Positions 6,046 to 26,335 are shown, counted from the first letter of the stretch. The stretch is DNA of 64,000 bases from Candidatus Cloacimonetes bacterium HGW-Cloacimonetes-2 (GCA_002842035.1 PHBP01000001.1:39674-103673); one strand, 5' to 3'. Notes: a model not told the origin generated them from the sequence alone. Numbers and translations are program-made.

Positions 6046-7025
6046 CAGAGCCTACCTGCCTGCTTGGCGTGCTGCTTGAGGATTCTTACAGCATTGGTGG
6101 CAGCTCCTAAGCGGACGTTGTTTGCCACATTCCAAAAGCATAGCGAGTGATCATCTGTGCCGGGACGCAAGCGCGAGACAAAGCTGTCGTTTGACGATCC
6201 CAAGCCCAGGGGAGTCATATAGGAGAAAGGATTATAGATGATGGATTCTGCACTGCGTAGCGCTTCCTCCGCCCTTGTAAGATCAACCTTGTCTCTGAAT
6301 TCTGCATAGACGGAGACCGAGTGCCCGTAAATCACGGGTACTCTTACACAGGTGGCAGATACCTCAAGCTCCGGTAAACGCAGTATCTTGCGGGATTCGT
6401 GGTGCATCTTTTCTTCTTCCTGAGAGTAACCATCATCCAGAAAAGCCCCAATCTGAGGGATAACATTGAGATCTATGACCTCGGGATAGATACCTTTATC
6501 GGTCTCTCCCCTACGCTGTTGCATCAAGGCTTGTATCCCGTTGTTACCGCTCCCTGAAACCGATTGGTAAGTTGAGACAATCAGCTTCTTCAGGCCAAAA
6601 AGCTTGTCAAGTACAGCCAGGGGGATGATAATCTGGATGGTGGAGCAATTTGGATTCGCCACTATTCCGGAATAGCCTCCCAACAGGTCTCCATTGACTT
6701 CCGGCACTACCAAAGGCAGGCTCTCTTCCTTGCGGAAAGCTGAGGAATTATCGATTACGACATCACAAGCTTCCGCTGCAATCGGTGCAAAGCTCTTTGC
6801 CACGCCCGCTCCAGCCGAGAAGAGCACGTAGTCCCTATGCGCCAGCAAGGCTGAGTTCTTTAGCTCTTGCACCTTGTAAGGACGGTCGTTGTAAAAGAGT
6901 TCTTTCCCGGCAGATCGCTGGGACGCAAAGAGATCAAGCTCCGTTACCGGAATCTCAAATTCCTCCAGGCATTTTATCATCATCCTGCCCACTTCACCAG
7001 TGGCACCGACAATTGCTATCTTCAT
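6045..7025 (-). CDS. asd: Aspartate-semialdehyde dehydrogenase
   Basis: MKIAIVGATGEVG N-terminus, active-site block NPNCSTIQ, and a length of ~326 aa. Confidence 0.9.
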   Translation of the reverse strand: MKIAIVGATGEVGRMMIKCLEEFEIPVTELDLFASQRSAGKELFYNDRPYKVQELKNSALLAHRDYVLFSAGAGVAKSFAPIAAEACDVVIDNSSAFRKEESLPLVVPEVNGDLLGGYSGIVANPNCSTIQIIIPLAVLDKLFGLKKLIVSTYQSVSGSGNNGIQALMQQRRGETDKGIYPEVIDLNVIPQIGAFLDDGYSQEEEKMHHESRKILRLPELEVSATCVRVPVIYGHSVSVYAEFRDKVDLTRAEEALRSAESIIYNPFSYMTPLGLGSSNDSFVSRLRPGTDDHSLCFWNVANNVRLGAATNAVRILKQHAKQAGRL

Positions 7026-7181
7026 TGTATATATCCTTTAAGCTGTTTTGAGTGAGCATAGCTCACAGAGAGGCATTGTTTAACAGACTGATTAATTGTC
7101 AAGCATCTTGAAACCACTCCCAAGACCTGAGAAAAGCCAAGCTTGACAGAAATAGCGCTTTATCAATCGTGGAAACGGTGT

Positions 7182-7257
7182 GCCCCAGTAGCTCAGGGGA
7201 TAGAGCGCCGGTTTCCTAAACCGTTGGTCGGATGTTCGATTCATCTCTGGGGCACCA
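7182..7257 (+). tRNA. tRNA-Arg (anticodon CCT), CCA encoded
   Basis: Hand-folded cloverleaf. Acceptor gccccag/ctggggc; U8; D arm gctc-aggggat-agagc; anticodon loop ttCCTaa; T arm ggatg-ttcgatt-catct; discriminator A followed by cca. Total 76 nt. Confidence 0.85.
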
Positions 7258-7279
7258 TTATTACATAAAGTAGAGAAGT

Positions 7280-9157
7280 ATGAATTCTATTCAGACCGGC
7301 AGTGTAGTAGCTTTTTACAATCACGGAGAACTGATCTTGGGCATCATCACAGCAATCTCCGAGACTTATGCCGATCTTATAGACAGGGATAAGAATACTT
7401 ATCACTTACCTATCAACCGCTTCCAACTAATCAGCCCAGCCTTATCGTCTGATGATCTGTATCCTGCCTTGCTGGGTTTCATAAAAGAGATATCTGATTA
7501 CCAGCCCGATCCTGATAGTATCCGAGCAGCTCTCGATAGTGATTATTGGACTAGCTTCAGCGAACTAAATGAAAGACTTGCTCCCGGTAATGGTTCGCAA
7601 GCCTTTGCGCTTTACATCTACCTTAGAGAGAATCCCTCGCTATTCCTCTGGAAAAAAGACCAGCTTCGCCTGCGCAGTCCTATGGAACAAGTAGAGTATA
7701 TCAGGATGGAAGCCAAAGAGGACGCAGAGCGCAGCTTTATACAGCGCATCAGCCCCGCTCTGGAGGCTATTCTACTGAACAAAGCCTATGCTACCATCCC
7801 TGAAGCAGATCAGATTACTGCTCAACTGCGCACCTATCTGATCTCCGGCACTATGAACGACTTGATCCGCCACATCAATAATATAGACTCAGGTGATGAC
7901 ACGGAGCACAAAATCCACAAGCTGCGAATCGCCCTTGGTGACATTTCCGGGGATACTGATCCTGTGCTGGAACGCTCCGGACTGCCTGTATTATTCCCCA
8001 CCAGCCTCTCCAGAGACCTGATCAAGCCCCTCCCCACTACTGAAAGCTACACTGCCTTTAGCATAGACGAAGGCGATGGTAATGATTTTGACGATGCGAT
8101 CAGCTTCAATAAGACCGATACCGGCTACAGCCTGGGCATCCACATCTCGGCAGTGGCAGCCAGGATAGCACAGGATTCGGAGCTTTTTGCCCATACCCAG
8201 GAGCGTATCTCCTCGATCTATCTCGCTCCGGGCACCACTCCCCTGCTCCCCGAAGAGCTCTCAGGAGGAGAACTAAGCTTGATCAAGGATAGCAAGCGTT
8301 TATGCCTCTCCCTGATCCTTGATCTGGATAATAAGCTCAGTATCCTGAACAGCCGTTTCGCCTTGACAGAAGTCTTTATTGAAAACAATTACAGCTACAG
8401 GGATGTTGACAGGCTGATCCACCAAGAACCTTACCAGACTCTACAGCGATTGGCTCGCCTTACTGCCAATGCCAGAGGCAAGCAAGATGATGCTTCATAC
8501 AATCCAATCGTTCACTATATCAAGAAAAGCGGAGACCAACTTCGCTTTAGGCGCATTGATTTCAGCAGCCCGGCACGGCAGTTAATTGAAGAGCTGATGG
8601 TGCTCTACAACAGCCATTTTGCCCGCTATGCGATGAATAATGGACTCGCTCTGATTTTTCGCAATGTAAGCCCCATCCCGGAAGGCGATGCTCCACAGAA
8701 TAGCCAGGCATTCCTCTCTACCACCGCGGACTATCATCCAGGCACTGGCTCTCAGGCTTATGTCCACGCTTCATCACCGATCAGGCGCTTTACAGACCTG
8801 GTCAATCAATATCAGATGCTAAGCTCTATTCTGGGCTATCAAGCCCCCTTTAGCGCGAAAGACTTGGATGACTTGATCCCGATGATCGAGACAAGACTTA
8901 TAATGCTGAGATCTGTGATCCAAGCAAGCGACCGCTATTGGCTACTGCAACTACTGAAGCAAAGCTACCTCGAGACTCCTCTTTCCGCTTTTATCATCAA
9001 GCCAGTCAGAGGTGGATTTGTAGTGGAACTGATAGATTGGCAAAAAAGGCTCTTGCTGCATACAGATTCGGATAACCGAGTCGGCAGTGAAATCCAGATC
9101 GTGCTGCACAGCGTGATGCCGGACAAAGGCTACGCTGCCGGCGACATCATCTCCTAA
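7280..9157 (+). CDS. RNB-domain exoribonuclease (RNase II/R family)
   Basis: RNB motifs DFDDAISF and HASSPIRRFTDLVNQ. Confidence 0.8.
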   Translation: MNSIQTGSVVAFYNHGELILGIITAISETYADLIDRDKNTYHLPINRFQLISPALSSDDLYPALLGFIKEISDYQPDPDSIRAALDSDYWTSFSELNERLAPGNGSQAFALYIYLRENPSLFLWKKDQLRLRSPMEQVEYIRMEAKEDAERSFIQRISPALEAILLNKAYATIPEADQITAQLRTYLISGTMNDLIRHINNIDSGDDTEHKIHKLRIALGDISGDTDPVLERSGLPVLFPTSLSRDLIKPLPTTESYTAFSIDEGDGNDFDDAISFNKTDTGYSLGIHISAVAARIAQDSELFAHTQERISSIYLAPGTTPLLPEELSGGELSLIKDSKRLCLSLILDLDNKLSILNSRFALTEVFIENNYSYRDVDRLIHQEPYQTLQRLARLTANARGKQDDASYNPIVHYIKKSGDQLRFRRIDFSSPARQLIEELMVLYNSHFARYAMNNGLALIFRNVSPIPEGDAPQNSQAFLSTTADYHPGTGSQAYVHASSPIRRFTDLVNQYQMLSSILGYQAPFSAKDLDDLIPMIETRLIMLRSVIQASDRYWLLQLLKQSYLETPLSAFIIKPVRGGFVVELIDWQKRLLLHTDSDNRVGSEIQIVLHSVMPDKGYAAGDIIS

Positions 9158-19440: not shown

Positions 19441-19492
19441 AGGCGCACGAACCAAGGAGATTCATGCGCCATCTATAGTGTGGAATTGCTTA

Positions 19493-19975
19493 TTATCTTA
19501 GCAGCTCGCTTATGCGGGCTGTCTCGCGTTCCATCTGCAAATCCGGCTTTGATAGCATATAGGTGATGATCGAAGCTTTGAGCGGAATAGCACCTTTAGG
19601 GAGTGCAAATCTCAATAGCTGATTGACTGCACCTGTACCGCCCATCCCCTTGAGAGGAAATCCCATTGTGAAGAAAGGCAGTAGCTTTACGCCTTTCATT
19701 GACTGGGTTTCCTTGATGTACTTGAGTATGAGTGGAGCGGATCTGAAGGCCCAAACAGGGCTACCCGCAATCACCACTTCATAATCTTTGGGATCTGGTG
19801 CATTGCGCAGCTCAAAGTTCATCGAGGTCGGCGAAGCTTTGGGATTGAGCGGTTCTACCGTCTCGAGCTCGTGGCTATCGACATGATGCCCTTCGGCTAT
19901 AAGCCGTTCAGAAATCATCTTGGCAAACTTGCGAGTGTTGCCGGTTTTGGAGTGGAAAACTACGAGTATCTTCAT
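19493..19975 (-). CDS. Flavodoxin-family protein
   Basis: MKILVVFHSKTGNTRKFA FMN-loop motif, 160 aa. Its start overlaps the stop of the upstream 5'-nucleotidase gene by 4 nt. Confidence 0.75.
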   Translation of the reverse strand: MKILVVFHSKTGNTRKFAKMISERLIAEGHHVDSHELETVEPLNPKASPTSMNFELRNAPDPKDYEVVIAGSPVWAFRSAPLILKYIKETQSMKGVKLLPFFTMGFPLKGMGGTGAVNQLLRFALPKGAIPLKASIITYMLSKPDLQMERETARISELLR

Positions 19976-21630
19976 CTAATCATCTCCGGGCTGGGTCTGG
20001 CATTATCATTACGCTCCCAGCGATCGTCAATTCTGGTCCTTACCGGGCTGTTGTTGCGGAAGTATCTTACGATCGAATCACGCAGATTAATCTGATGATA
20101 GGTAATATCTTCCGCAGGAACGGACGTGAGCAGAGTAAGGCCGGCATTGCCTTGCATTAGGAAGTCTGTGGTTGCTACAGTATAAATCCTATTCGGATCC
20201 CAAGGCTGACCACCAATACGGAGAGTTGTAACGCGCTCCATATCTGGCAGTTTCTTGGAGTAAACGACGTTTACACCGGATACTACAAGACCGTGGCGTC
20301 CGCCAGCTACACGGGTTTCTATGATGCGACGCAGGAATTCACCGGTGCAGCGGAAGCTGACTACCATATTATCAAAAGGCATAACGTCGAAGACACTGCG
20401 ATAGGTCACTGGGCCGGCAGCGATATCAGCACGGATACCACCGAGATTGAGGAAGGCAAAGTCTGCATTGACATCTGCTCTCATCGCGTCAACCACTGTA
20501 TTACCCATCAAGCTTTGTGCATCGACATTGGTACGTGAAAGATAGAGCCCGGCACTGCCGACGATCTCATCCATACCTCGCTCCGCGATGGCGACCTGAG
20601 CTTCTATGATCTCGCTTATCTCCTCATCCGGAATGAATTGATCTTCAAAGAGGGTAATCATCGAGCCTTCACGAATTGCCGGGGATTCATAACCGCTGAC
20701 GGTCTTGGTCATTGGATCGATCTTGAGGGTTATCCAGCCAAGGTTTGAGCCATAGGCATAGCCTTGAATTACCATAGTATGAGTCACGGGGTCAATCCAT
20801 GGCTTTGGTACGCCACGGTGCATATGGCCACCGAGAAAGATATCGATTCCGGGAACTTCACGAGCTATCTCCTGGGCATCATAACCCCAGACCGCGGTGC
20901 GTTCTGCGAAGAGAGGATTGCCTTGATTGTCATAGCGTGTAAGATAAGTCTCCTCGACATCATAAGGCAGGCCGGCATGACCAAGAACGATCACGATATC
21001 TACTCTTTCCACTCTGCGGACGTGATTGACCCACTTCGTGAGCTCCTCTTTTTCGCTGAGAAAGTCTATCCCACGGATATTCTCCGGGAAACTCATCTTT
21101 TCTGTATCAGTAGTGGTCATACCAACGATACCGATCTTTACACCGAGTCTCTCGATTATAGTGTAAGGACGCAGGTAATCAGGAAACTCGCCTGTGTCTG
21201 TATAAACCACATTGCTGGAAACAATTGGGAATTGCGCCATACGCAGGGTTTCGATCAGATCAGCCGGACTGATGTCAAACTCGTGATTACCAATGGTCAT
21301 TGCGTCATAACCAATGGCATTCATATAATCCATCACAGCACGACCATTGGTCACTGTTCCTACGGGACGTCCTTGAAAGAAATCACCAATATCAAAGAGC
21401 AAGGTGTCTCGATTGGGACCTTTCAGGCTGCGCACGTGCTTTATCAGGGTCGCCGCGGAAGCACCTCCACCCAGTTGGGGAGGAAATTCCGGGTTCATAA
21501 AGGTTGCTTTTGCCCGGTCGATACCGCCGTGGACATCGTTTGACCATAGGATGTCCAAGCGGAAATCTTCTGCTGCCAACAGGCTTATCAGCACCAGGCT
21601 AAGCAGCGTTAATACTATGTTTTTTTTCAT
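19972..21630 (-). CDS. Secreted bifunctional metallophosphatase/5'-nucleotidase (UshA-like)
   Basis: Signal peptide MKKNIVLTLLSLVL, calcineurin-like motifs NDVHGG, GDFFQG and GNHEFD, and a C-terminal 5'-nucleotidase-type domain. Confidence 0.85.
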   Translation of the reverse strand: MKKNIVLTLLSLVLISLLAAEDFRLDILWSNDVHGGIDRAKATFMNPEFPPQLGGGASAATLIKHVRSLKGPNRDTLLFDIGDFFQGRPVGTVTNGRAVMDYMNAIGYDAMTIGNHEFDISPADLIETLRMAQFPIVSSNVVYTDTGEFPDYLRPYTIIERLGVKIGIVGMTTTDTEKMSFPENIRGIDFLSEKEELTKWVNHVRRVERVDIVIVLGHAGLPYDVEETYLTRYDNQGNPLFAERTAVWGYDAQEIAREVPGIDIFLGGHMHRGVPKPWIDPVTHTMVIQGYAYGSNLGWITLKIDPMTKTVSGYESPAIREGSMITLFEDQFIPDEEISEIIEAQVAIAERGMDEIVGSAGLYLSRTNVDAQSLMGNTVVDAMRADVNADFAFLNLGGIRADIAAGPVTYRSVFDVMPFDNMVVSFRCTGEFLRRIIETRVAGGRHGLVVSGVNVVYSKKLPDMERVTTLRIGGQPWDPNRIYTVATTDFLMQGNAGLTLLTSVPAEDITYHQINLRDSIVRYFRNNSPVRTRIDDRWERNDNARPSPEMIR

Positions 21631-21634
21631 TGGA

Positions 21635-23071
21635 TTACCATACAAACTTAAGACCGGTCATCAGGGTAATAAAGTTCTCAGAAACCTTGTCTGGATTGTC
21701 CCAGCCACGATCGGTCAGGTTAATATAGGAATTCGGCCACAGCGCATAAGTGCTGCTACCGGTGTAGATTTTGTCGTTGTAATAGCTGTCGCGAAAGAGA
21801 TCAAGACTCTCATACTCGCGCCAGGCATATCCCAGACCGATATCAAGGCTAAGACCTTCTGCCAGAGCAATGCTACTACCGGCTGTGATCATCGGAGTGA
21901 GGGTTTTCTTTGCCAAAGTCAGGGGAACAACTACGCCTGCAACTGTCTGGGATTCGTTTTCGAGTCTCCAGTTGGTGACGGCTTGGAAACCGATTCTGAA
22001 GGGGATGCGGTTGCGGATATGGTGTTCCACACCGGCATAAAGATTGTAAACATCATCGTACATATCTGAGATATCAGTCCACTGCACGCGCTCGATATCG
22101 AGATTGAACCAGGTACGAACCACGTTTCTGGGCTGGTAATTGATACCTACTCTGATCTCAGAAGGCATAATGTAATCAACTTCGTAGTCATTGGCGACAT
22201 CAACGGCAGCGTGTCCCAGCCAGGCATCCTGTTGGATAGTGCTGGTTCCGCTGCAATCAAGAGTGCTCTTCATTGTATAGGCAGCAGCAAGACCAAAGCG
22301 AGGGCCAAGTTTCATACTGAGACCAGCCTTAATCTGGTTGCCTTCCAGGCTGAATTCGTTGGTATAAGTAGAATCAGGCAATACATCCGCTCCAACCTGA
22401 TCTTCGGACCACTTTGTCCAACGGATAGTCTTCATCTGGGTCACATCGCCATTCACAAGACCAAAGTCAAAACCAAGATTCAGGTCATAACCATCAGCAA
22501 TAGCAAAACCAACAGAGGCAAGCCCGGCAGCCTTGTTTAGCAGACCTTCGTTTTCAATGCTGTTGATTGCTATCTTCTCGGGATACCCATCGTTATCGGT
22601 GCCACGGTTGTTGCGGATCTCTTCCAGGTATTTACCATCGAAGTTGCTGATCGGCATATAATACAGACCTGCACCCAAACGGAACTTTCCAATGCCCATC
22701 GAGGCATAGCCGGAGCCAGCGTAATCGTAAAAAGCATTGATATTTGAGTTGATTACTGCATCGTCTATATAGGCATCAAAGCTATTATATAGCGGGATGG
22801 CACGGTTGTCTTCGTTGCGGTTGATACCCACTGTGCCTTGGAGACCAAAGGTCTTGCGCATCAGGGTCAGATTAGCAGGATTGGTGGCAATGGCAAAGGG
22901 CTGTATGTCGTTATAGACAGTTGCACCGCCCATAGCGAAAGCCCGGGGATCCATTGTGCCGATCTTATTGCCAAAGTAGGTATCAGTGATCGACCAGGCA
23001 TTGAGGCTGATTCCCGCGCCAAGGATCAGGAGAGTCAGGAAAAGCGCTTTGAAAGATTTATAAGAAGTCAT
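21635..23071 (-). CDS. Outer-membrane beta-barrel protein, FadL/OMPP1-like
   Basis: Signal peptide; N-terminal block DPRAFAMGGATVYNDIQPFAIATNPANL, which resembles the FadL/TodX hatch motif; alternating beta-strand pattern; aromatic C-terminus LKFVW. Confidence 0.55.
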   Translation of the reverse strand: MTSYKSFKALFLTLLILGAGISLNAWSITDTYFGNKIGTMDPRAFAMGGATVYNDIQPFAIATNPANLTLMRKTFGLQGTVGINRNEDNRAIPLYNSFDAYIDDAVINSNINAFYDYAGSGYASMGIGKFRLGAGLYYMPISNFDGKYLEEIRNNRGTDNDGYPEKIAINSIENEGLLNKAAGLASVGFAIADGYDLNLGFDFGLVNGDVTQMKTIRWTKWSEDQVGADVLPDSTYTNEFSLEGNQIKAGLSMKLGPRFGLAAAYTMKSTLDCSGTSTIQQDAWLGHAAVDVANDYEVDYIMPSEIRVGINYQPRNVVRTWFNLDIERVQWTDISDMYDDVYNLYAGVEHHIRNRIPFRIGFQAVTNWRLENESQTVAGVVVPLTLAKKTLTPMITAGSSIALAEGLSLDIGLGYAWREYESLDLFRDSYYNDKIYTGSSTYALWPNSYINLTDRGWDNPDKVSENFITLMTGLKFVW

Positions 23072-23081
23072 TTATCCTCCA

Positions 23082-25733
23082 TTAGAAACGATAATCAAGT
23101 GATAAGCGGATGGTGTTTTCAACGTGCTGAACTCGTTCCCAGTAACTATTGGCAGGCAGGTCAACATTGTATTCGCGAATCCTGAGTTCCTTGTCCTGAT
23201 AAGTCTTGTTTCTGAATTTCAGCGTCATATAAAGGTTCTGAGAGATTCGGCTGTGGATGGCTACCCATGCCTTGGCGCCTTTCTCTCCCATAAAATCTAT
23301 TTCCATATCTTCCCAATCCCAGTGAGAAATGCCGTGTCCATACCAATAGAGGAAGGCACCCTGCAGCTTGAGAGAAGGACTAAAGTTGTGAGTATAATTG
23401 ACTCCAATGTAATCACCCTGCATCAAGGTACTGGCAGCAGCCATACTGTTGTTACCGCCTGCAGCAGGATTGGTGAGCGAGGTATAGGGAGGTCCCCAGA
23501 CTGTATTGTAGCGATACTCAAACTCCAGGAAATCCCTCGCAGAGAGGAAAGTCCTAAAGCTAAGAGTATATTCGTTTGTCTTTGAGACTCCACGCTCGGC
23601 AGTATCGTCGTAACGATTTACCTGGTTCTTATAGCGCAATCTCATAGCAACCTGATACAGGGGACGAAACTCCAATTCACTCTGGAATCTTGCGCTTCTG
23701 CGACCATCGGAAAGTCTTTCCCAGATATCAAGATAGCTACGACCAACCGTAAAGTAGTTGTTGAACTTGTATCTCGTTTCAAAGTAGATACCGTGTTCCG
23801 GCTGGGCTTGCGAGGCATTCTGATAAATATCCGAGAGTGTAGGATTGGTAAGCGCATATATGTACTTTTCCAGGACGGTATCATCGAATCTCTCATGCTC
23901 TGAGAAGGCATTGCTATAAGGATTGTCAAAATTGACATCGTAATGCCTGAGTAGAGCCAGAAAATACAAATTTTCATACTGAGTATAAGCACTCACCAAG
24001 TAAGCCTTGGGATCATCTCCCAGCTTGAAATCTTCACCCCTCACGGAGAGCTCTGCATACTCGCCCTGCACCGATACATTACCCACTACGGTATGTCCGT
24101 CAAAACCGATCACTCTGCGATAATCGCGCACATAATCGGCAGTGCTGGTGCTATAAAGCCCTGCTATCTCGGAATCATTTATCTTGAAAACCTTATGATA
24201 GTATGAGTTTCTGATGAAATCCAGCTTCAGGGTATTCCAATCCGGCACCACAAAGTGAGCATTATCATACAAAGCCGTATAGGTAGTAAATCCCAGCTTG
24301 GTACCGATCAGAGGGCTTACCTGGAGGTGTGTACCCCAGATCGTCTCATCTACAAAGTTCTTGCGATAGGCAAGGTTGATATAAGGCACAGCATAAGCTC
24401 CGCCTGCCACAAGCTCTTGATTGAAGTGAGCTTCAGCTTCGCGGAGTTCATCCTCGTCCCAACGGATGGTCGGATTCACATAAGAAAGCACCTGATACTT
24501 GCCATCAGCACCCACAACAGGCGTGATATAATTCGTAGGATTGCCTGAATCATCAGTCTCCCTCTCCATATAAACGATCGCATCTTTCTTGTCTTGTGAG
24601 ACAAAGGCAGAGAATCCGATCAAGGGATTATTGAGCTCGATCGCGGCACCTCTCAGAGCATAAAGCTGCGTTCTGGAAAGATCAGGAGTGATACCCAAGA
24701 TACGTTTACTAAAGCCATATCCGGTCTTTCTGGCGCTGTAGAAATCTGTATTTTCCATCACCAGACCTTCACCATAAGTAGCTCTATAATGACCCAGGTA
24801 AAGCTTGAGTGATGTCCTCGGAAGGAATGCCAGATCAGTGTTTTCGTATCCGGCATAATACTTTGAATTAGCGATCAGATCTTCACCCGTGCTCTTCCAA
24901 ATATCATCCTCGCCCTTTGCGGTATTGTGCATCCAGCCAATCTTCAAGTGATTGCCATAACGCGCCCTAAGCTTGACTATATAGTCAGGATCGATCTGAT
25001 CCAGATTAAAATAACCCCAATACGAGAGGCGTTTATCTTGCGGCACAACAGTCGTTACGCCGTAATCCTCTCTCAGGAAGGGCTCGTGATACATATCGTA
25101 TGCGCCTTCCTCGTAATAACGGGTATAATACTGCATCTGAGCGTCAAAGTAAAGCCTGTTGCGAACCGGCGGATTCCTGTAATAAACGTAGGACCGCAGA
25201 TTTGTATAGCCATAGTGCGAGAGACCGACTGTATTTCGCAGGTCTCGCATATCAGCTATGGTATCTCCACGGGCAACACGCTTCAGGATTCCAACCGCAT
25301 CGACCGGCGAGACGTTTGGCAAGCTGATAAAATCGTCAAAATGCATCTTGTTAACATTCTGCGGTGTCATCAGATAGTCTTCCCAGACGTCGCTCATTCC
25401 TTCTGAGCCGCCTTCGTTGCTATCCAACCTTTCCAAGAGATCCATAATCTCCTCGCGGCGAGCCGTCACTTCATCTTCTTCGCGATAAAGCGACACCACG
25501 ACTTGATCCCTGATCCTCAGCATCGTGATCTGATCTATCGAAGCGATGTTCCTCAGATCGTAAATGCTCTCGAAAAAGCTGATATAAGTGCGGTAATTAT
25601 AGATATCATTTGCCTGAATCTCAGAGATTGGCAGACGCATGATCTCTTCCAGAGAAGCCGTGTTCAAATCGACCTTCTGGGCGTAAAGCCCTATCGCAAA
25701 CAGGGCTATAAACATGATCAAAAACTTCTTCAT
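23082..25733 (-). CDS. Large outer-membrane protein with N-terminal helix-hairpin-helix (ComEA-like) motifs
   Basis: Signal peptide MKKFLIMFIALFAIGLYA (ATG 25733). HhH-like VDLNTASLEEIMRLP and FISLPNVSPVDAVGILK. About 700 aa of Tyr/Gly-rich beta-strand sequence ending in the OMP-type terminus LSLDYRF. Confidence 0.6.
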   Translation of the reverse strand: MKKFLIMFIALFAIGLYAQKVDLNTASLEEIMRLPISEIQANDIYNYRTYISFFESIYDLRNIASIDQITMLRIRDQVVVSLYREEDEVTARREEIMDLLERLDSNEGGSEGMSDVWEDYLMTPQNVNKMHFDDFISLPNVSPVDAVGILKRVARGDTIADMRDLRNTVGLSHYGYTNLRSYVYYRNPPVRNRLYFDAQMQYYTRYYEEGAYDMYHEPFLREDYGVTTVVPQDKRLSYWGYFNLDQIDPDYIVKLRARYGNHLKIGWMHNTAKGEDDIWKSTGEDLIANSKYYAGYENTDLAFLPRTSLKLYLGHYRATYGEGLVMENTDFYSARKTGYGFSKRILGITPDLSRTQLYALRGAAIELNNPLIGFSAFVSQDKKDAIVYMERETDDSGNPTNYITPVVGADGKYQVLSYVNPTIRWDEDELREAEAHFNQELVAGGAYAVPYINLAYRKNFVDETIWGTHLQVSPLIGTKLGFTTYTALYDNAHFVVPDWNTLKLDFIRNSYYHKVFKINDSEIAGLYSTSTADYVRDYRRVIGFDGHTVVGNVSVQGEYAELSVRGEDFKLGDDPKAYLVSAYTQYENLYFLALLRHYDVNFDNPYSNAFSEHERFDDTVLEKYIYALTNPTLSDIYQNASQAQPEHGIYFETRYKFNNYFTVGRSYLDIWERLSDGRRSARFQSELEFRPLYQVAMRLRYKNQVNRYDDTAERGVSKTNEYTLSFRTFLSARDFLEFEYRYNTVWGPPYTSLTNPAAGGNNSMAAASTLMQGDYIGVNYTHNFSPSLKLQGAFLYWYGHGISHWDWEDMEIDFMGEKGAKAWVAIHSRISQNLYMTLKFRNKTYQDKELRIREYNVDLPANSYWERVQHVENTIRLSLDYRF

Positions 25734-25948
25734 AGCTGTTCCTTGTGCGCTATACAAAGGTTTTGCACCTTCTTTCGCTATTTTCACAAACTAATTCGAA
25801 TTGCTAATTCTGTAAAGTCTTTTTTTGGGAAGCCTGCTCAGATTGTCCCCAGCCGCAAAATGCACTGCAAAATCTGTTGTTTTCGAGCCTGACTAGTCTG
25901 CACGGCTTTGGCTCTTTCGACTGTGAAAGACCTATTTCTTTAAGCTCA

Positions 25949-26185
25949 CTCTTAGCAAGGTGGTGTGCAGCCCCTGTGATTCTGCTGTGAATCCCCTGTG
26001 GGACAGCAGATAGACAGCTTCCGCGCAGGCGCTTTACAGGTGAGTGCTTAGAGTAAGGCTTTGCATTGCTTGCTGCTTGATAGGATGCATCTACCCTGCT
26101 TGTATCCTGCTTGAATCCTGCTTGAACATCCAATATAGAGCTATCCTGCAATGCTTTAGGAATGTTCAATTGAATAGGAAGTATA
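25949..26185 (+). repeat. Intergenic repeat family B, copy 3 (long form)
   Basis: ctcttagc..cagcccctgtgattctgctgtg..gagtaaggct..cttgataggatgc, then ctaccctg cttgtatcctg cttgaatcctg cttgaac, then cctgcaatgctttaggaatgttcaattgaatagga. Confidence 0.8.
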
Positions 26186-26335
26186 GAGGTGGACAAATAC
26201 TGTGTGTATCTTTTGGGTAAGTCGTTGCCGGAGATAGCGCTATCGATAGCGAGGGAATTCGCAGGATACTATCTATAGTTTATCTTTGTGTGCTCAGTCA
26301 GTGTGCAGCACCAGTCAAAAGACCCAAGTAAGTAT

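What the first reader, a model, noticed from the sequence alone, without database searches (positions are those of the whole stretch)
19493..25733. Four-gene operon: HhH-bearing giant OMP, FadL-like barrel, secreted 5'-nucleotidase, flavodoxin
The genes are packed tightly on the minus strand, with gaps of 10 nt, 4 nt and a 4-nt overlap. The first product has a signal peptide and two ComEA-like helix-hairpin-helix motifs (non-specific dsDNA binding) ahead of a ~700-aa beta-rich region that ends in an OMP-type C-terminal Phe. A DNA-binding module fused to an outer-membrane barrel is not an architecture I recognise. With a second barrel and a periplasmic or secreted UshA-like nucleotidase, the simplest hypothesis is a surface system that captures extracellular nucleic acid or nucleotides and dephosphorylates them for uptake. 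No nuclease is visible in the operon, and the role of the flavodoxin is unexplained.
Basis: inference. Interest (0 to 1): 0.6.

Follow-up and report, generated by a model that had tools for sequence, protein, structure and literature searches.

The report
Outer-membrane nucleic-acid uptake cassette candidate
This Cloacimonadota operon holds the three-gene core of an uncharacterised outer-membrane gene set shared by several related phyla (a large pore with two ComEA-like domains, a FadL-type partner barrel and a secreted 5'-nucleotidase), which most likely takes in extracellular nucleic acid and strips its phosphate, though no experiment shows this.

Summary
Four tightly packed minus-strand genes sit at the stated coordinates and are followed by a strong terminator hairpin.

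- **g1 (883 aa):** signal peptide, two HHH_3 (ComEA-type) modules, then a roughly 690-aa beta-barrel of about 24-26 strands that matches no known family.
- **g2:** a 14-strand FadL-fold barrel with the NPA hatch motif. It is closest to BamG and FadL, not to PorV.
- **g3:** an intact secreted 5'-nucleotidase.
- **g4:** a flavodoxin.

The conserved unit is not these four genes. g1-g2-g3 is syntenic in all 33 informative Cloacimonadota loci. It recurs in Zixibacteria, Eisenbacteria, Calditrichota and KSB1: g2 follows g1 in 64 of 73 informative loci and g3 in 45 of 65. g1 and g2 share the same presence or absence in 121 of 121 genomes. The flavodoxin is an add-on found only in Cloacimonadaceae.

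Outside Cloacimonadales, two more genes precede g1. One is a type IX secretion (T9SS) cargo protein with lamin-tail and OB-fold nucleic-acid-binding domains (DUF5689/DdbD-like, ExeM/NucH N-terminus-like). The other is a PorQ-like barrel. This genome keeps both, unlinked.

That context supports a nucleic-acid capture, import and dephosphorylation system. Against it, the HhH hairpins are non-canonical, the N-terminal region is acidic, and no nuclease is linked. Function remains inferred.

The parts
23082..25733 (-). g1: 883-aa outer-membrane protein (signal peptide, two HHH_3 modules, large beta-barrel, C-terminal ...DYRF)
   Evidence: ORF; Pfam HHH_3; AF2 model; Foldseek finds only large OM barrels. 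Present as a single copy in 111 of 121 genomes of the phylum.
25500..25682 (-). g1 HhH module 1 (aa 18-78), ComEA-type HHH_3 with degenerate hairpins (LP-ISE, SID)
   Evidence: Pfam E 1.3e-9. PDB profile hits to EEPD1 HhH and ComEA. Net charge -3.
25368..25487 (-). g1 acidic linker helix (aa 83-122), net charge -10
   Evidence: Helices 88-102 and 111-122 in the AF2 model; charge count.
25176..25367 (-). g1 HhH module 2 (aa 123-186), diverged HHH_3 (NVSPVDA, GLS), mildly basic
   Evidence: The window's own segment gives no Pfam hit. Aligned segments of P0126, P0137 and P0143 hit HHH_3 at 6e-13 to 2e-4. pI 9.2.
23085..25154 (-). g1 beta-barrel (aa 194-883), about 24-26 strands, no Pfam family. 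Most conserved stretches: GEGLVMENTDFY..., DNPYSNAFSE, HWDWEDMEIDF
   Evidence: DSSP string of the model; Foldseek; invariant columns.
21635..23071 (-). g2: 478-aa FadL-fold 14-strand barrel with NPA hatch motif (aa 64-66). Obligate partner of g1.
   Evidence: Same presence/absence as g1 in 121 of 121 genomes.
19972..21630 (-). g3: 552-aa secreted 5'-nucleotidase (Metallophos + 5_nucleotid_C), catalytic motifs intact
   Evidence: 3ivd nucleotidase 1.5e-61, UshA 7.5e-38.
19493..19975 (-). g4: 160-aa flavodoxin-family protein, no signal peptide. Cloacimonadaceae-specific add-on to the operon.
   Evidence: distribution.
19442..19470 (-). Terminator-like hairpin closing the operon
   Evidence: 12-bp stem, 7 GC pairs, T-rich tail.
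25734..26335 (-). 602-nt non-coding region upstream of g1 (presumed promoter region). Holds 11-bp phased repeat units at 26086-26124. No Rfam match.

Best explanation
g1, g2 and g3 are the core of an outer-membrane system for taking up and dephosphorylating extracellular nucleic acid. The system is conserved across FCB-group candidate phyla.

**Proposed mechanism. Every step is inferred; none is shown.**
1. A T9SS-exported OB-fold protein binds DNA or RNA fragments at the cell surface. A PorQ-like barrel holds that protein there. In this genome the pair is unlinked, at C11:240546-242845.
2. The polymer or oligonucleotides cross the outer membrane through the g1 barrel (about 24-26 strands). 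g1 works as a complex with the FadL-fold barrel g2.
3. The two HHH_3 modules at the periplasmic N-terminus of g1 hold the incoming strand, as ComEA does. This makes entry one-directional without TonB.
4. The periplasmic 5'-nucleotidase g3 converts the resulting nucleotides to nucleosides and phosphate for uptake across the inner membrane.

The flavodoxin is co-transcribed in Cloacimonadaceae but is not part of the conserved machine.
For: **Synteny.**
- g1-g2-g3 is intact in 20 of 20 distant Cloacimonadota loci.
- It is intact in 13 of 13 informative closer loci.
- In 80 loci from Zixibacteria, Eisenbacteria, Calditrichota (including Caldithrix abyssi) and KSB1, g2 follows g1 in 64 of 73 informative loci and g3 in 45 of 65.

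**Co-occurrence.**
- g1 and g2 have identical presence or absence in 121 of 121 genomes. Both are single copy.

**Upstream genes in other phyla.**
- A roughly 1000-aa T9SS-CTD protein lies upstream of g1 in 57 of 60 informative loci. Across 35 members it carries LTD in 29, OB-fold PF01336 in 28 and DUF5689 in 5.
- NCBIfam matches it only to the N-terminal, non-catalytic part of ExeM/NucH extracellular nucleases.
- DUF5689 is the family of DdbD. DdbD is proposed (AlphaFold3 interface, p202-like fold) as the DNA-binding partner of the outer-membrane transporter DdbC. The ddb locus is shown by deletion to be required for DNA depletion in Bacteroides. DdbC and DdbD are homologous to genes needed for Riemerella natural transformation (10.1101/2025.03.18.642099).
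- A PorQ-like barrel sits between that protein and g1 in 54 of 72 informative loci.

**This genome.**
- It keeps orthologues of both upstream genes as an adjacent pair (hhalign probability 99.6%; 44% identity).
- g1 carries a Pfam-significant ComEA-type HHH_3 domain.
- g3 is an intact secreted 5'-nucleotidase.

**Topology.**
- On the DSSP string, the short-turn/long-loop rule fits only a 26-strand reading. That reading puts the N-terminus in the periplasm (inference).

**Precedent for partner barrels.**
- FadL-fold barrels serve as partners of large barrels in this superphylum: BamG with BamA (PMC12578637) and PorV with SprA.
Against: - No experiment exists for any family member.
- The canonical GhG hairpins and lysines of ComEA are replaced (LP-ISE, SID, NVS, GLS).
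- The N-terminal region is acidic: net charge -11, pI 4.6. Only module 2 is mildly basic.
- HHH_3-like folds also occur in proteins that are not known to bind DNA. PsbU and T2SS GspK models gave weak hits.
- No nuclease lies in or near the cassette in about 100 loci.
- This genome has no full-length ExeM/NucH nuclease.
- This genome also has ComEC and two secretins, so a conventional DNA-uptake route may exist.
- FadL channels are known for hydrophobic substrates, so the role of g2 is unexplained.
- Periplasmic placement of the HhH modules rests on a secondary-structure string and general OMP rules, not on coordinates.
- The only well-supported loss of the cassette (six closed 1.5-1.6 Mb genomes) is a single event. 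It coincides with loss of SprA and with general genome reduction.
Confidence: 0.5

Rival explanations
1. Natural-transformation entry gate. g1-g2 is the outer-membrane DNA channel that feeds ComEC, so DNA is taken up as genetic material. The 5'-nucleotidase only recycles the degraded strand.
For: ComEA-type modules on g1. ComEC is present in this genome. The DdbCD-like pair of Riemerella is required for transformation (10.1101/2025.03.18.642099). The upstream partner in other phyla is DUF5689/OB-fold.
Against: The conserved linkage is to a catabolic 5'-nucleotidase, not to comEC, dprA or comF. Two secretins are present. The cassette is near-universal and single copy across a phylum with no known competence.
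Confidence: 0.12
2. Monomer scavenging only. g1 is a large general or nucleotide-selective porin and g2 a separate channel. Nucleotides, NAD or UDP-sugars diffuse in and g3 dephosphorylates them. The HhH modules are structural (a periplasmic anchor or plug) and do not bind nucleic acid.
For: Degenerate hairpins and an acidic N-terminal region. No nuclease is linked. UshA, NadN and CpdB relatives act on monomers.
Against: This does not explain the conserved upstream OB-fold/LTD surface protein. It does not explain the strict g1-g2 co-occurrence. It does not explain why a 24-26-strand barrel would be needed for monomers.
Confidence: 0.15
3. Outer-membrane biogenesis or T9SS-accessory machine. 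g1-g2 (with the PorQ-like barrel) is a platform that inserts, anchors or displays T9SS cargo or other envelope components. The nucleotidase is a passenger gene.
For: - g2's best structural matches are the FadL-like subunits of Bacteroidota BAM complexes, with TM-score (normalised to target length) 0.66-0.71.
- The ancestral neighbours are a T9SS-CTD cargo protein and a PorV/PorQ-family barrel.
- This genome has 127 CTD proteins.
- The six closed genomes that lack g1 and g2 also lack SprA.
- It behaves as a core, single-copy gene across the phylum.
Against: A canonical SprA and at least 8 PorV/PorQ proteins already exist in this genome. g1 has no POTRA, Omp85, LptD or usher signature. The nucleotidase linkage persists across phyla at 33-47% identity, which is unlikely for a passenger. 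The cargo next door is specifically a nucleic-acid-binding type.
Confidence: 0.15

Closest known systems
ddbABCDEF DNA-utilisation locus of Bacteroides thetaiotaomicron, and the homologous Riemerella anatipestifer transformation genes (10.1101/2025.03.18.642099)
   Same: Both have the same logic: a surface DNA-binding OB-fold protein, an outer-membrane transporter and a periplasmic enzyme with an SPI signal peptide. There is a direct homology link: 5 of 35 upstream partner proteins hit DUF5689, the DdbD family, and 28 of 35 hit an OB-fold model.
   Different: - The ddb transporter (DdbC) is TonB-dependent. g1 has no Plug or TBDT domain and carries ComEA-like modules instead.
- ddb encodes three nucleases. 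This cassette encodes none and has a 5'-nucleotidase instead.
- The partner here is T9SS-exported with a CTD, not a lipoprotein.
- The ddb locus has no FadL-like second barrel.
ComEA, the periplasmic DNA receptor and ratchet of natural competence (PMC3879209, PMC9747964)
   Same: The HHH_3 domain of g1 scores above the Pfam threshold and aligns to ComEA structures 8dss, 8dfk and 2duy. Its location is probably periplasmic.
   Different: - In g1 the domain is fused to an outer-membrane barrel.
- The ComEA model TIGR01259 scores 25.7 bits against a cutoff of 152.
- The GhG hairpins and the basic residues are lost, and the region is acidic overall.
FadL/TodX/TbuX channels and the FadL-like partner subunits BamG (Bacteroidota BAM, PMC12578637) and PorV (T9SS)
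   Same: g2 has the 14-strand barrel, the N-terminal hatch and the NPA motif. Foldseek TM-score (normalised to target length) is 0.66-0.71 to BamG-type subunits and about 0.6 to FadL and TodX. Like BamG and PorV, it is encoded and inherited together with a much larger barrel.
   Different: No Pfam Toluene_X hit for the single sequence. PorV_fam scores 20 bits against a cutoff of 90, and the Foldseek score to PorV is only 0.41. The partner barrel is neither BamA nor SprA.
UshA-type periplasmic or surface 5'-nucleotidases. From my own knowledge, also the OB-fold + nuclease + 5'-nucleotidase protein YhcR of Bacillus subtilis.
   Same: g3 has both domains and all metal-binding motifs. Its closest solved relatives are the 3ivd nucleotidase and UshA. 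YhcR shows that OB-folds and a 5'-nucleotidase co-operate in extracellular nucleic-acid breakdown.
   Different: g3 is below every NCBIfam equivalog cutoff (UshA 189 bits against 600). It has no nuclease domain, no CTD and no lipobox.

Membership tests
ComEA (TIGR01259; HHH_3 PF12836) | HHH_3 domain above Pfam gathering score | tested here: met
   38.5 bits against a cutoff of 27, aa 18-78. 58 of 59 family members hit HHH_3.
ComEA (TIGR01259; HHH_3 PF12836) | Full-length ComEA model above its cutoff | tested here: not met
   TIGR01259 scores 25.7 bits against 152.35. TIGR00426 scores 20.8 against 53.1.
ComEA (TIGR01259; HHH_3 PF12836) | Canonical Gly-hydrophobic-Gly hairpins and a basic DNA-binding surface | tested here: not met
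   The hairpins read LP-ISE, SID, NVS and GLS. Net charge is -3 for module 1, -10 for the linker and +2 for module 2.
ComEA (TIGR01259; HHH_3 PF12836) | Binds DNA in the periplasm | not testable with these tools
   Needs EMSA or a localisation experiment. Periplasmic placement is inferred only from the strand and loop pattern.
FadL/Toluene_X outer-membrane channels (g2) | 14-strand barrel with an N-terminal hatch | tested here: met
   AF2 model with pLDDT 83.8 and 14 strands. Top Foldseek hits are BamG-type subunits, FadL, TodX and TbuX at E 1e-15 to 1e-12.
FadL/Toluene_X outer-membrane channels (g2) | NPA motif in the hatch | tested here: met
   NPA at aa 64-66. N64 is invariant in 16 orthologues.
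FadL/Toluene_X outer-membrane channels (g2) | Sequence-profile match to the family | tested here: inconclusive
   No Pfam hit at E <= 0.1 for the single sequence. The orthologue profile hits TbuX at 2e-9, CymD at 1e-6 and TodX at 4e-5 in the PDB.
PorV/PorQ of the T9SS (g2) | NF033709/NF033710 above cutoff; PorV-like fold | tested here: not met
   20.4 bits against 90, over aa 40-78 only. Foldseek to PorV 8gl6_F gives 0.41. This genome has at least 8 better PorV/PorQ genes.
UshA-type 5'-nucleotidase (g3) | Metallophos + 5_nucleotid_C domains with intact metal-binding motifs | tested here: met
   49.9 and 113.7 bits, both above cutoffs. The motifs NDVHG, GDFFQG, GNHEF, GHAG and GGHMH are read in the sequence.
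UshA-type 5'-nucleotidase (g3) | UshA equivalog score | tested here: not met
   NF007109 scores 189.5 bits against a cutoff of 600. g3 is a family member, not a UshA orthologue.
TonB-dependent DNA transporter locus (ddb type) | TBDT barrel with Plug domain | tested here: not met
   No Plug or TonB_dep_Rec hit in g1 or in 59 relatives.
TonB-dependent DNA transporter locus (ddb type) | DUF5689/OB-fold surface DNA-binding partner encoded alongside | tested here: inconclusive
   Met in other phyla: DUF5689 in 5 of 35 and OB-fold in 28 of 35. In this genome the orthologue is unlinked and reaches only profile-level similarity.
TonB-dependent DNA transporter locus (ddb type) | Secreted nucleases in the locus | tested here: not met
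   No recurrent neighbour family is a nuclease. This genome has no full ExeM/NucH.
Flavodoxin (g4) | Flavodoxin-family domain above the gathering score | tested here: met
   Flavodoxin_4 scores 30.9 bits against 24. Flavodoxin_5 scores 31.2 against 27.

The most novel reading that the evidence does not exclude
g1-g2 is a previously unrecognised class of outer-membrane DNA translocon that works without TonB or a pilus. A pore of about 26 strands is gated by a FadL-fold partner. Its own pair of periplasmic ComEA-like modules ratchets in nucleic acid that a T9SS-displayed OB-fold receptor hands over at the surface. It would serve feeding, and possibly transformation, in Cloacimonadota, Calditrichota, Zixibacteria, Eisenbacteria and related phyla.
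Probability: 0.3. Interest if true: 0.85.

Novelty: new variant of a known kind. Interest (0 to 1): 0.64.

Why it matters
**Known routes.** How DNA and oligonucleotides cross the Gram-negative outer membrane is known for only two routes:
- the type IV pilus secretin with ComEA;
- more recently, a TonB-dependent DdbCD-type transporter in Bacteroidota.

**What a third solution would mean.** This cassette would be a third solution. It is present in nearly every Cloacimonadota genome sampled and in hundreds of species of other FCB candidate phyla (408 pattern hits among GTDB species representatives). Those phyla dominate anaerobic digesters, sediments and landfills, where extracellular DNA is a large pool of phosphorus and nucleosides. 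If the reading is right:
- the cassette gives a genetic marker for eDNA consumption in those communities;
- it gives a new barrel family with no Pfam model;
- it adds another case of a FadL-fold barrel acting as a partner subunit rather than a lipid channel.

**A route to experiments.** Caldithrix abyssi is cultured and carries the full five-gene version, so the question is experimentally approachable.

Tried and rejected
- **g1-g2 as a replacement T9SS translocon.** The genome has 127 CTD proteins. I rejected this because a canonical 2043-aa SprA and at least 8 PorV/PorQ genes exist.
- **g2 as PorV.** Rejected on score and fold.
- **g1 as a TonB-dependent transporter, usher, LptD or BamA.** No Pfam signature. 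Foldseek gives only generic barrel matches with TM-score at most 0.46 and about 9% identity.
- **Flavodoxin as a system component.** Rejected on distribution.
- **Riboswitch or other RNA element upstream.** Nothing credible in Rfam.
- **Nuclease among recurrent neighbours.** None. The other recurrent clusters are housekeeping or regulatory genes, or spurious antisense ORFs.
- **First alignments for the search for related loci.** A 14-sequence alignment worked.
- **Model coordinates.** These are not exposed. The strand count and the side of the membrane the N-terminus faces therefore rest on the DSSP string.
Full report
**1. Observation**

- g1: 23082-25733, 883 aa from the ATG that gives MKKFLIMFIALFAIGLYA/QKVD. 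All orthologues start this way.
- g2: 21635-23071, 478 aa.
- g3: 19972-21630, 552 aa.
- g4: 19493-19975, 160 aa.

The spacings are 10 nt, 4 nt and a 4-nt overlap. A terminator-like hairpin with a 12-bp stem follows g4 at 19470-19442. A 602-nt non-coding stretch precedes g1. One transcription unit is therefore plausible.

**2. The four products**

*g1.* Pfam finds only HHH_3, at aa 18-78 (E 1.3e-9, above the gathering score). The ComEA models score far below their cutoffs. The closest solved sequences are the HhH repeats of EEPD1 and ComEA.

The second module (aa 123-186) gives no hit by itself. The aligned segments of three relatives hit HHH_3 at 6e-13, 1.6e-9 and 1.7e-4, so two modules are real at the family level.

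An AlphaFold2 model built from 25 orthologues (pLDDT 76.5, pTM 0.73) shows two helical modules joined by a long helix, followed by strands from aa 194 to 883. Foldseek against the PDB returns only large outer-membrane barrels (FimD usher, SlpA, MtrB, TonB-dependent receptors) at TM-score 0.46 or less and about 9% identity. The protein is a barrel, but of no described family. Pfam on 59 relatives again finds only HHH_3.

*Strand count and topology of g1.* I worked from the DSSP string. The C-terminal Phe must lie at the periplasmic face. Only a 26-strand reading gives uniformly short periplasmic turns (2-9 aa) and long extracellular loops (19-46 aa). That reading places the N-terminal modules in the periplasm.

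*g2.* The profile of 16 orthologues hits TbuX (2e-9), CymD, TodX, the BamG subunits of Bacteroidota BAM complexes, and PorV weakly. Its model (pLDDT 83.8) has 14 strands, an N-terminal hatch with the NPA motif (aa 64-66) and a break in strand 3. Foldseek ranks the FadL-like BAM subunits first (TM-score normalised to target length 0.66-0.71), then FadL, TodX and TbuX (about 0.6). PorV scores only 0.41.

*g3.* It has Metallophos and 5_nucleotid_C, all metal-binding motifs and an SPI-type signal peptide. Its nearest structures are the 3ivd nucleotidase (1.5e-61) and UshA.

*g4.* It is a cytoplasmic flavodoxin-family protein.

**3. What is conserved**

- **Organism.** Source names show the organism is a Cloacimonadota bacterium.
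- **Distribution of g1.** It is single copy in 111 of 121 genomes sampled across the phylum.
- **Distribution of g2.** It is present in exactly the same 111 genomes and absent from the same 10.
- **Synteny in the phylum.** g1-g2-g3 is intact in 20 of 20 distant loci, with g1 identity 41-65%, and in all 13 informative closer loci.
- **Flavodoxin.** It follows g3 in 8 of 13 Cloacimonadaceae loci and in 1 of 20 wider loci (that one also from Cloacimonadaceae). It never follows g3 outside the phylum.
- **Wider family.** A search of 1.84 billion representative proteins finds 87 clusters below 1e-30, with full-length relatives at 28-37% identity. Sources name them only as helix-hairpin-helix or ComEA-like proteins of Eisenbacteria, Edwardsbacteria and others.
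- **Other phyla.** The motif [FY]DNPYxR[ASG]FS finds 408 loci among GTDB species representatives. The best 80 come from Zixibacteria, Eisenbacteria, Calditrichota (including Caldithrix abyssi) and KSB1. In those loci g2 follows g1 in 64 of 73 informative cases and g3 follows in 45 of 65.

**4. Two further ancestral members**

I clustered all ORFs of 100 loci. Two more families are linked to g1 outside Cloacimonadales and in the deep Cloacimonadota family f13:
- **c3**, a roughly 294-aa protein immediately upstream of g1. It is present in 54 of 72 informative loci.
- **c1**, a roughly 1000-aa protein upstream of c3. It is present in 57 of 60 informative loci.

*c1.* Across 35 members it carries a lamin-tail domain in 29, an OB-fold nucleic-acid-binding domain in 28, a T9SS C-terminal sorting domain in 22, and DUF5689 in 5. 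NCBIfam aligns it only to the N-terminal, non-catalytic part of ExeM/NucH extracellular nucleases.

DUF5689 is the family of DdbD. DdbD is the proposed DNA-binding partner of the outer-membrane transporter in the Bacteroides ddb DNA-utilisation locus and in the Riemerella transformation genes (10.1101/2025.03.18.642099).

*c3.* It belongs to the PorV/PorQ family, though below the cutoff.

*This genome.* It keeps both genes as an adjacent pair, elsewhere in the genome at C11:240546-242845:
- P0306 is a 480-aa protein with the OB module and the sorting domain. hhalign probability to the c1 family is 99.6%.
- The c3 orthologue is 44% identical to the f13 copy.

*Phylogenetic profile of c3.* It is single copy in 108 of the 111 genomes that have g1 and g2. 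Of the 10 genomes that lack them, it is missing from 8; one of the other two has a clear c3 orthologue and one only a weak match.

*The one clean loss.* The six closed 1.5-1.6 Mb genomes that lack g1, g2 and c3 also lack SprA. This is a single event, so it is weak evidence.

**5. Mechanism**

The most economical reading is a nucleic-acid capture, import and dephosphorylation system:
1. The OB-fold protein acts as the surface receptor. It is exported by the T9SS and held by the PorQ-like barrel.
2. g1 and g2 form the outer-membrane conduit.
3. The periplasmic HHH_3 modules act as a ComEA-like retention device.
4. g3 carries out the periplasmic dephosphorylation.

What is shown:
- gene order, co-occurrence, domain content and predicted folds.

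What is inferred:
- every functional step;
- the g1-g2 complex, by analogy with BamG-BamA (PMC12578637) and PorV-SprA;
- the periplasmic side of the HhH modules.

**6. Caveats**

- The HhH hairpins have lost the Gly-x-Gly signature and the lysines seen in ComEA.
- Module 1 has net charge -3, the linker -10 and the whole N-terminal region -11. Only module 2 is basic, with pI 9.2.
- No nuclease is linked in any locus, and this genome has no full-length ExeM/NucH.
- The genome has ComEC and two secretins.
- FadL channels are known for hydrophobic substrates.
- No riboswitch precedes g1.

**7. Rivals**

- A transformation gate.
- Monomer scavenging with structural HhH modules.
- An envelope-biogenesis or T9SS-accessory platform.

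A replacement T9SS translocon is excluded, because SprA and many PorV/PorQ genes are present.

**8. Comparison and novelty**

The cassette works most like the ddb DNA-utilisation locus and shares the DdbD-type partner with it. It is not a member of that family: there is no TonB-dependent transporter and no nucleases.

g1 contains a ComEA-type domain but is not ComEA. g2 has the FadL fold but is not PorV.

Full-text searches found no description of this architecture. An earlier agent of this scan reached a similar reading on a homologous operon in another Cloacimonadota genome. Its note gave me the ddb lead, which I then tested. It is not independent evidence.

I rate the cassette a new variant of a known kind (a nucleic-acid utilisation locus). 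There is a substantial chance that the transporter itself is a new class.

Noticed in passing
window 26086-26124: The intergenic region upstream of g1 holds three 11-bp phased units, TGCTTG(T/A)ATCCTG. This is the same period-11 intergenic repeat family noted elsewhere in this window.
   Followed up: no
L130 (own genome C11:234000-246000), 6547-8846: An adjacent pair, overlapping by 4 nt. The first gene is a 480-aa T9SS-CTD protein with the OB module of the cassette's ancestral upstream partner. The second is a PorQ-like barrel. Upstream lie lspA, a DksA/TraR-like gene, a VWA-CTD protein and a PNP_UDP_1 nucleoside phosphorylase. A type I-E cse1 gene follows.
   Followed up: partly
own genome, all contigs: 127 matches to the T9SS C-terminal sorting domain TIGR04183 in a 2.5-Mb genome, four of them inside this window. 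This is an unusually large T9SS cargo set for the genome size.
   Followed up: no
G002, G005, G008, G017, G023, G064 (family f12, closed 1.5-1.6 Mb genomes): This reduced Cloacimonadota lineage lacks g1, g2, the PorQ-like partner and SprA altogether. It looks like a T9SS-free branch of the phylum.
   Followed up: partly
g1 after about aa 392 (window about 24555); genomes of genera g2 and g5: Several genera carry an insertion of about 40 aa, rich in D, G, N and Y, in a predicted extracellular loop of g1. It shows as split matches and in P0088.
   Followed up: no
own genome C2:281322-282449 (outside the window): A second, distant 5'-nucleotidase paralogue, 27% identical to g3.
   Followed up: no
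L094-L129 (Calditrichota loci), 3-7 kb downstream of g1, opposite strand: A recurrent block downstream of the cassette: a receiver-domain protein, a sigma-54 activator, a histidine kinase and MazG. It could be its regulator in that phylum.
   Followed up: no
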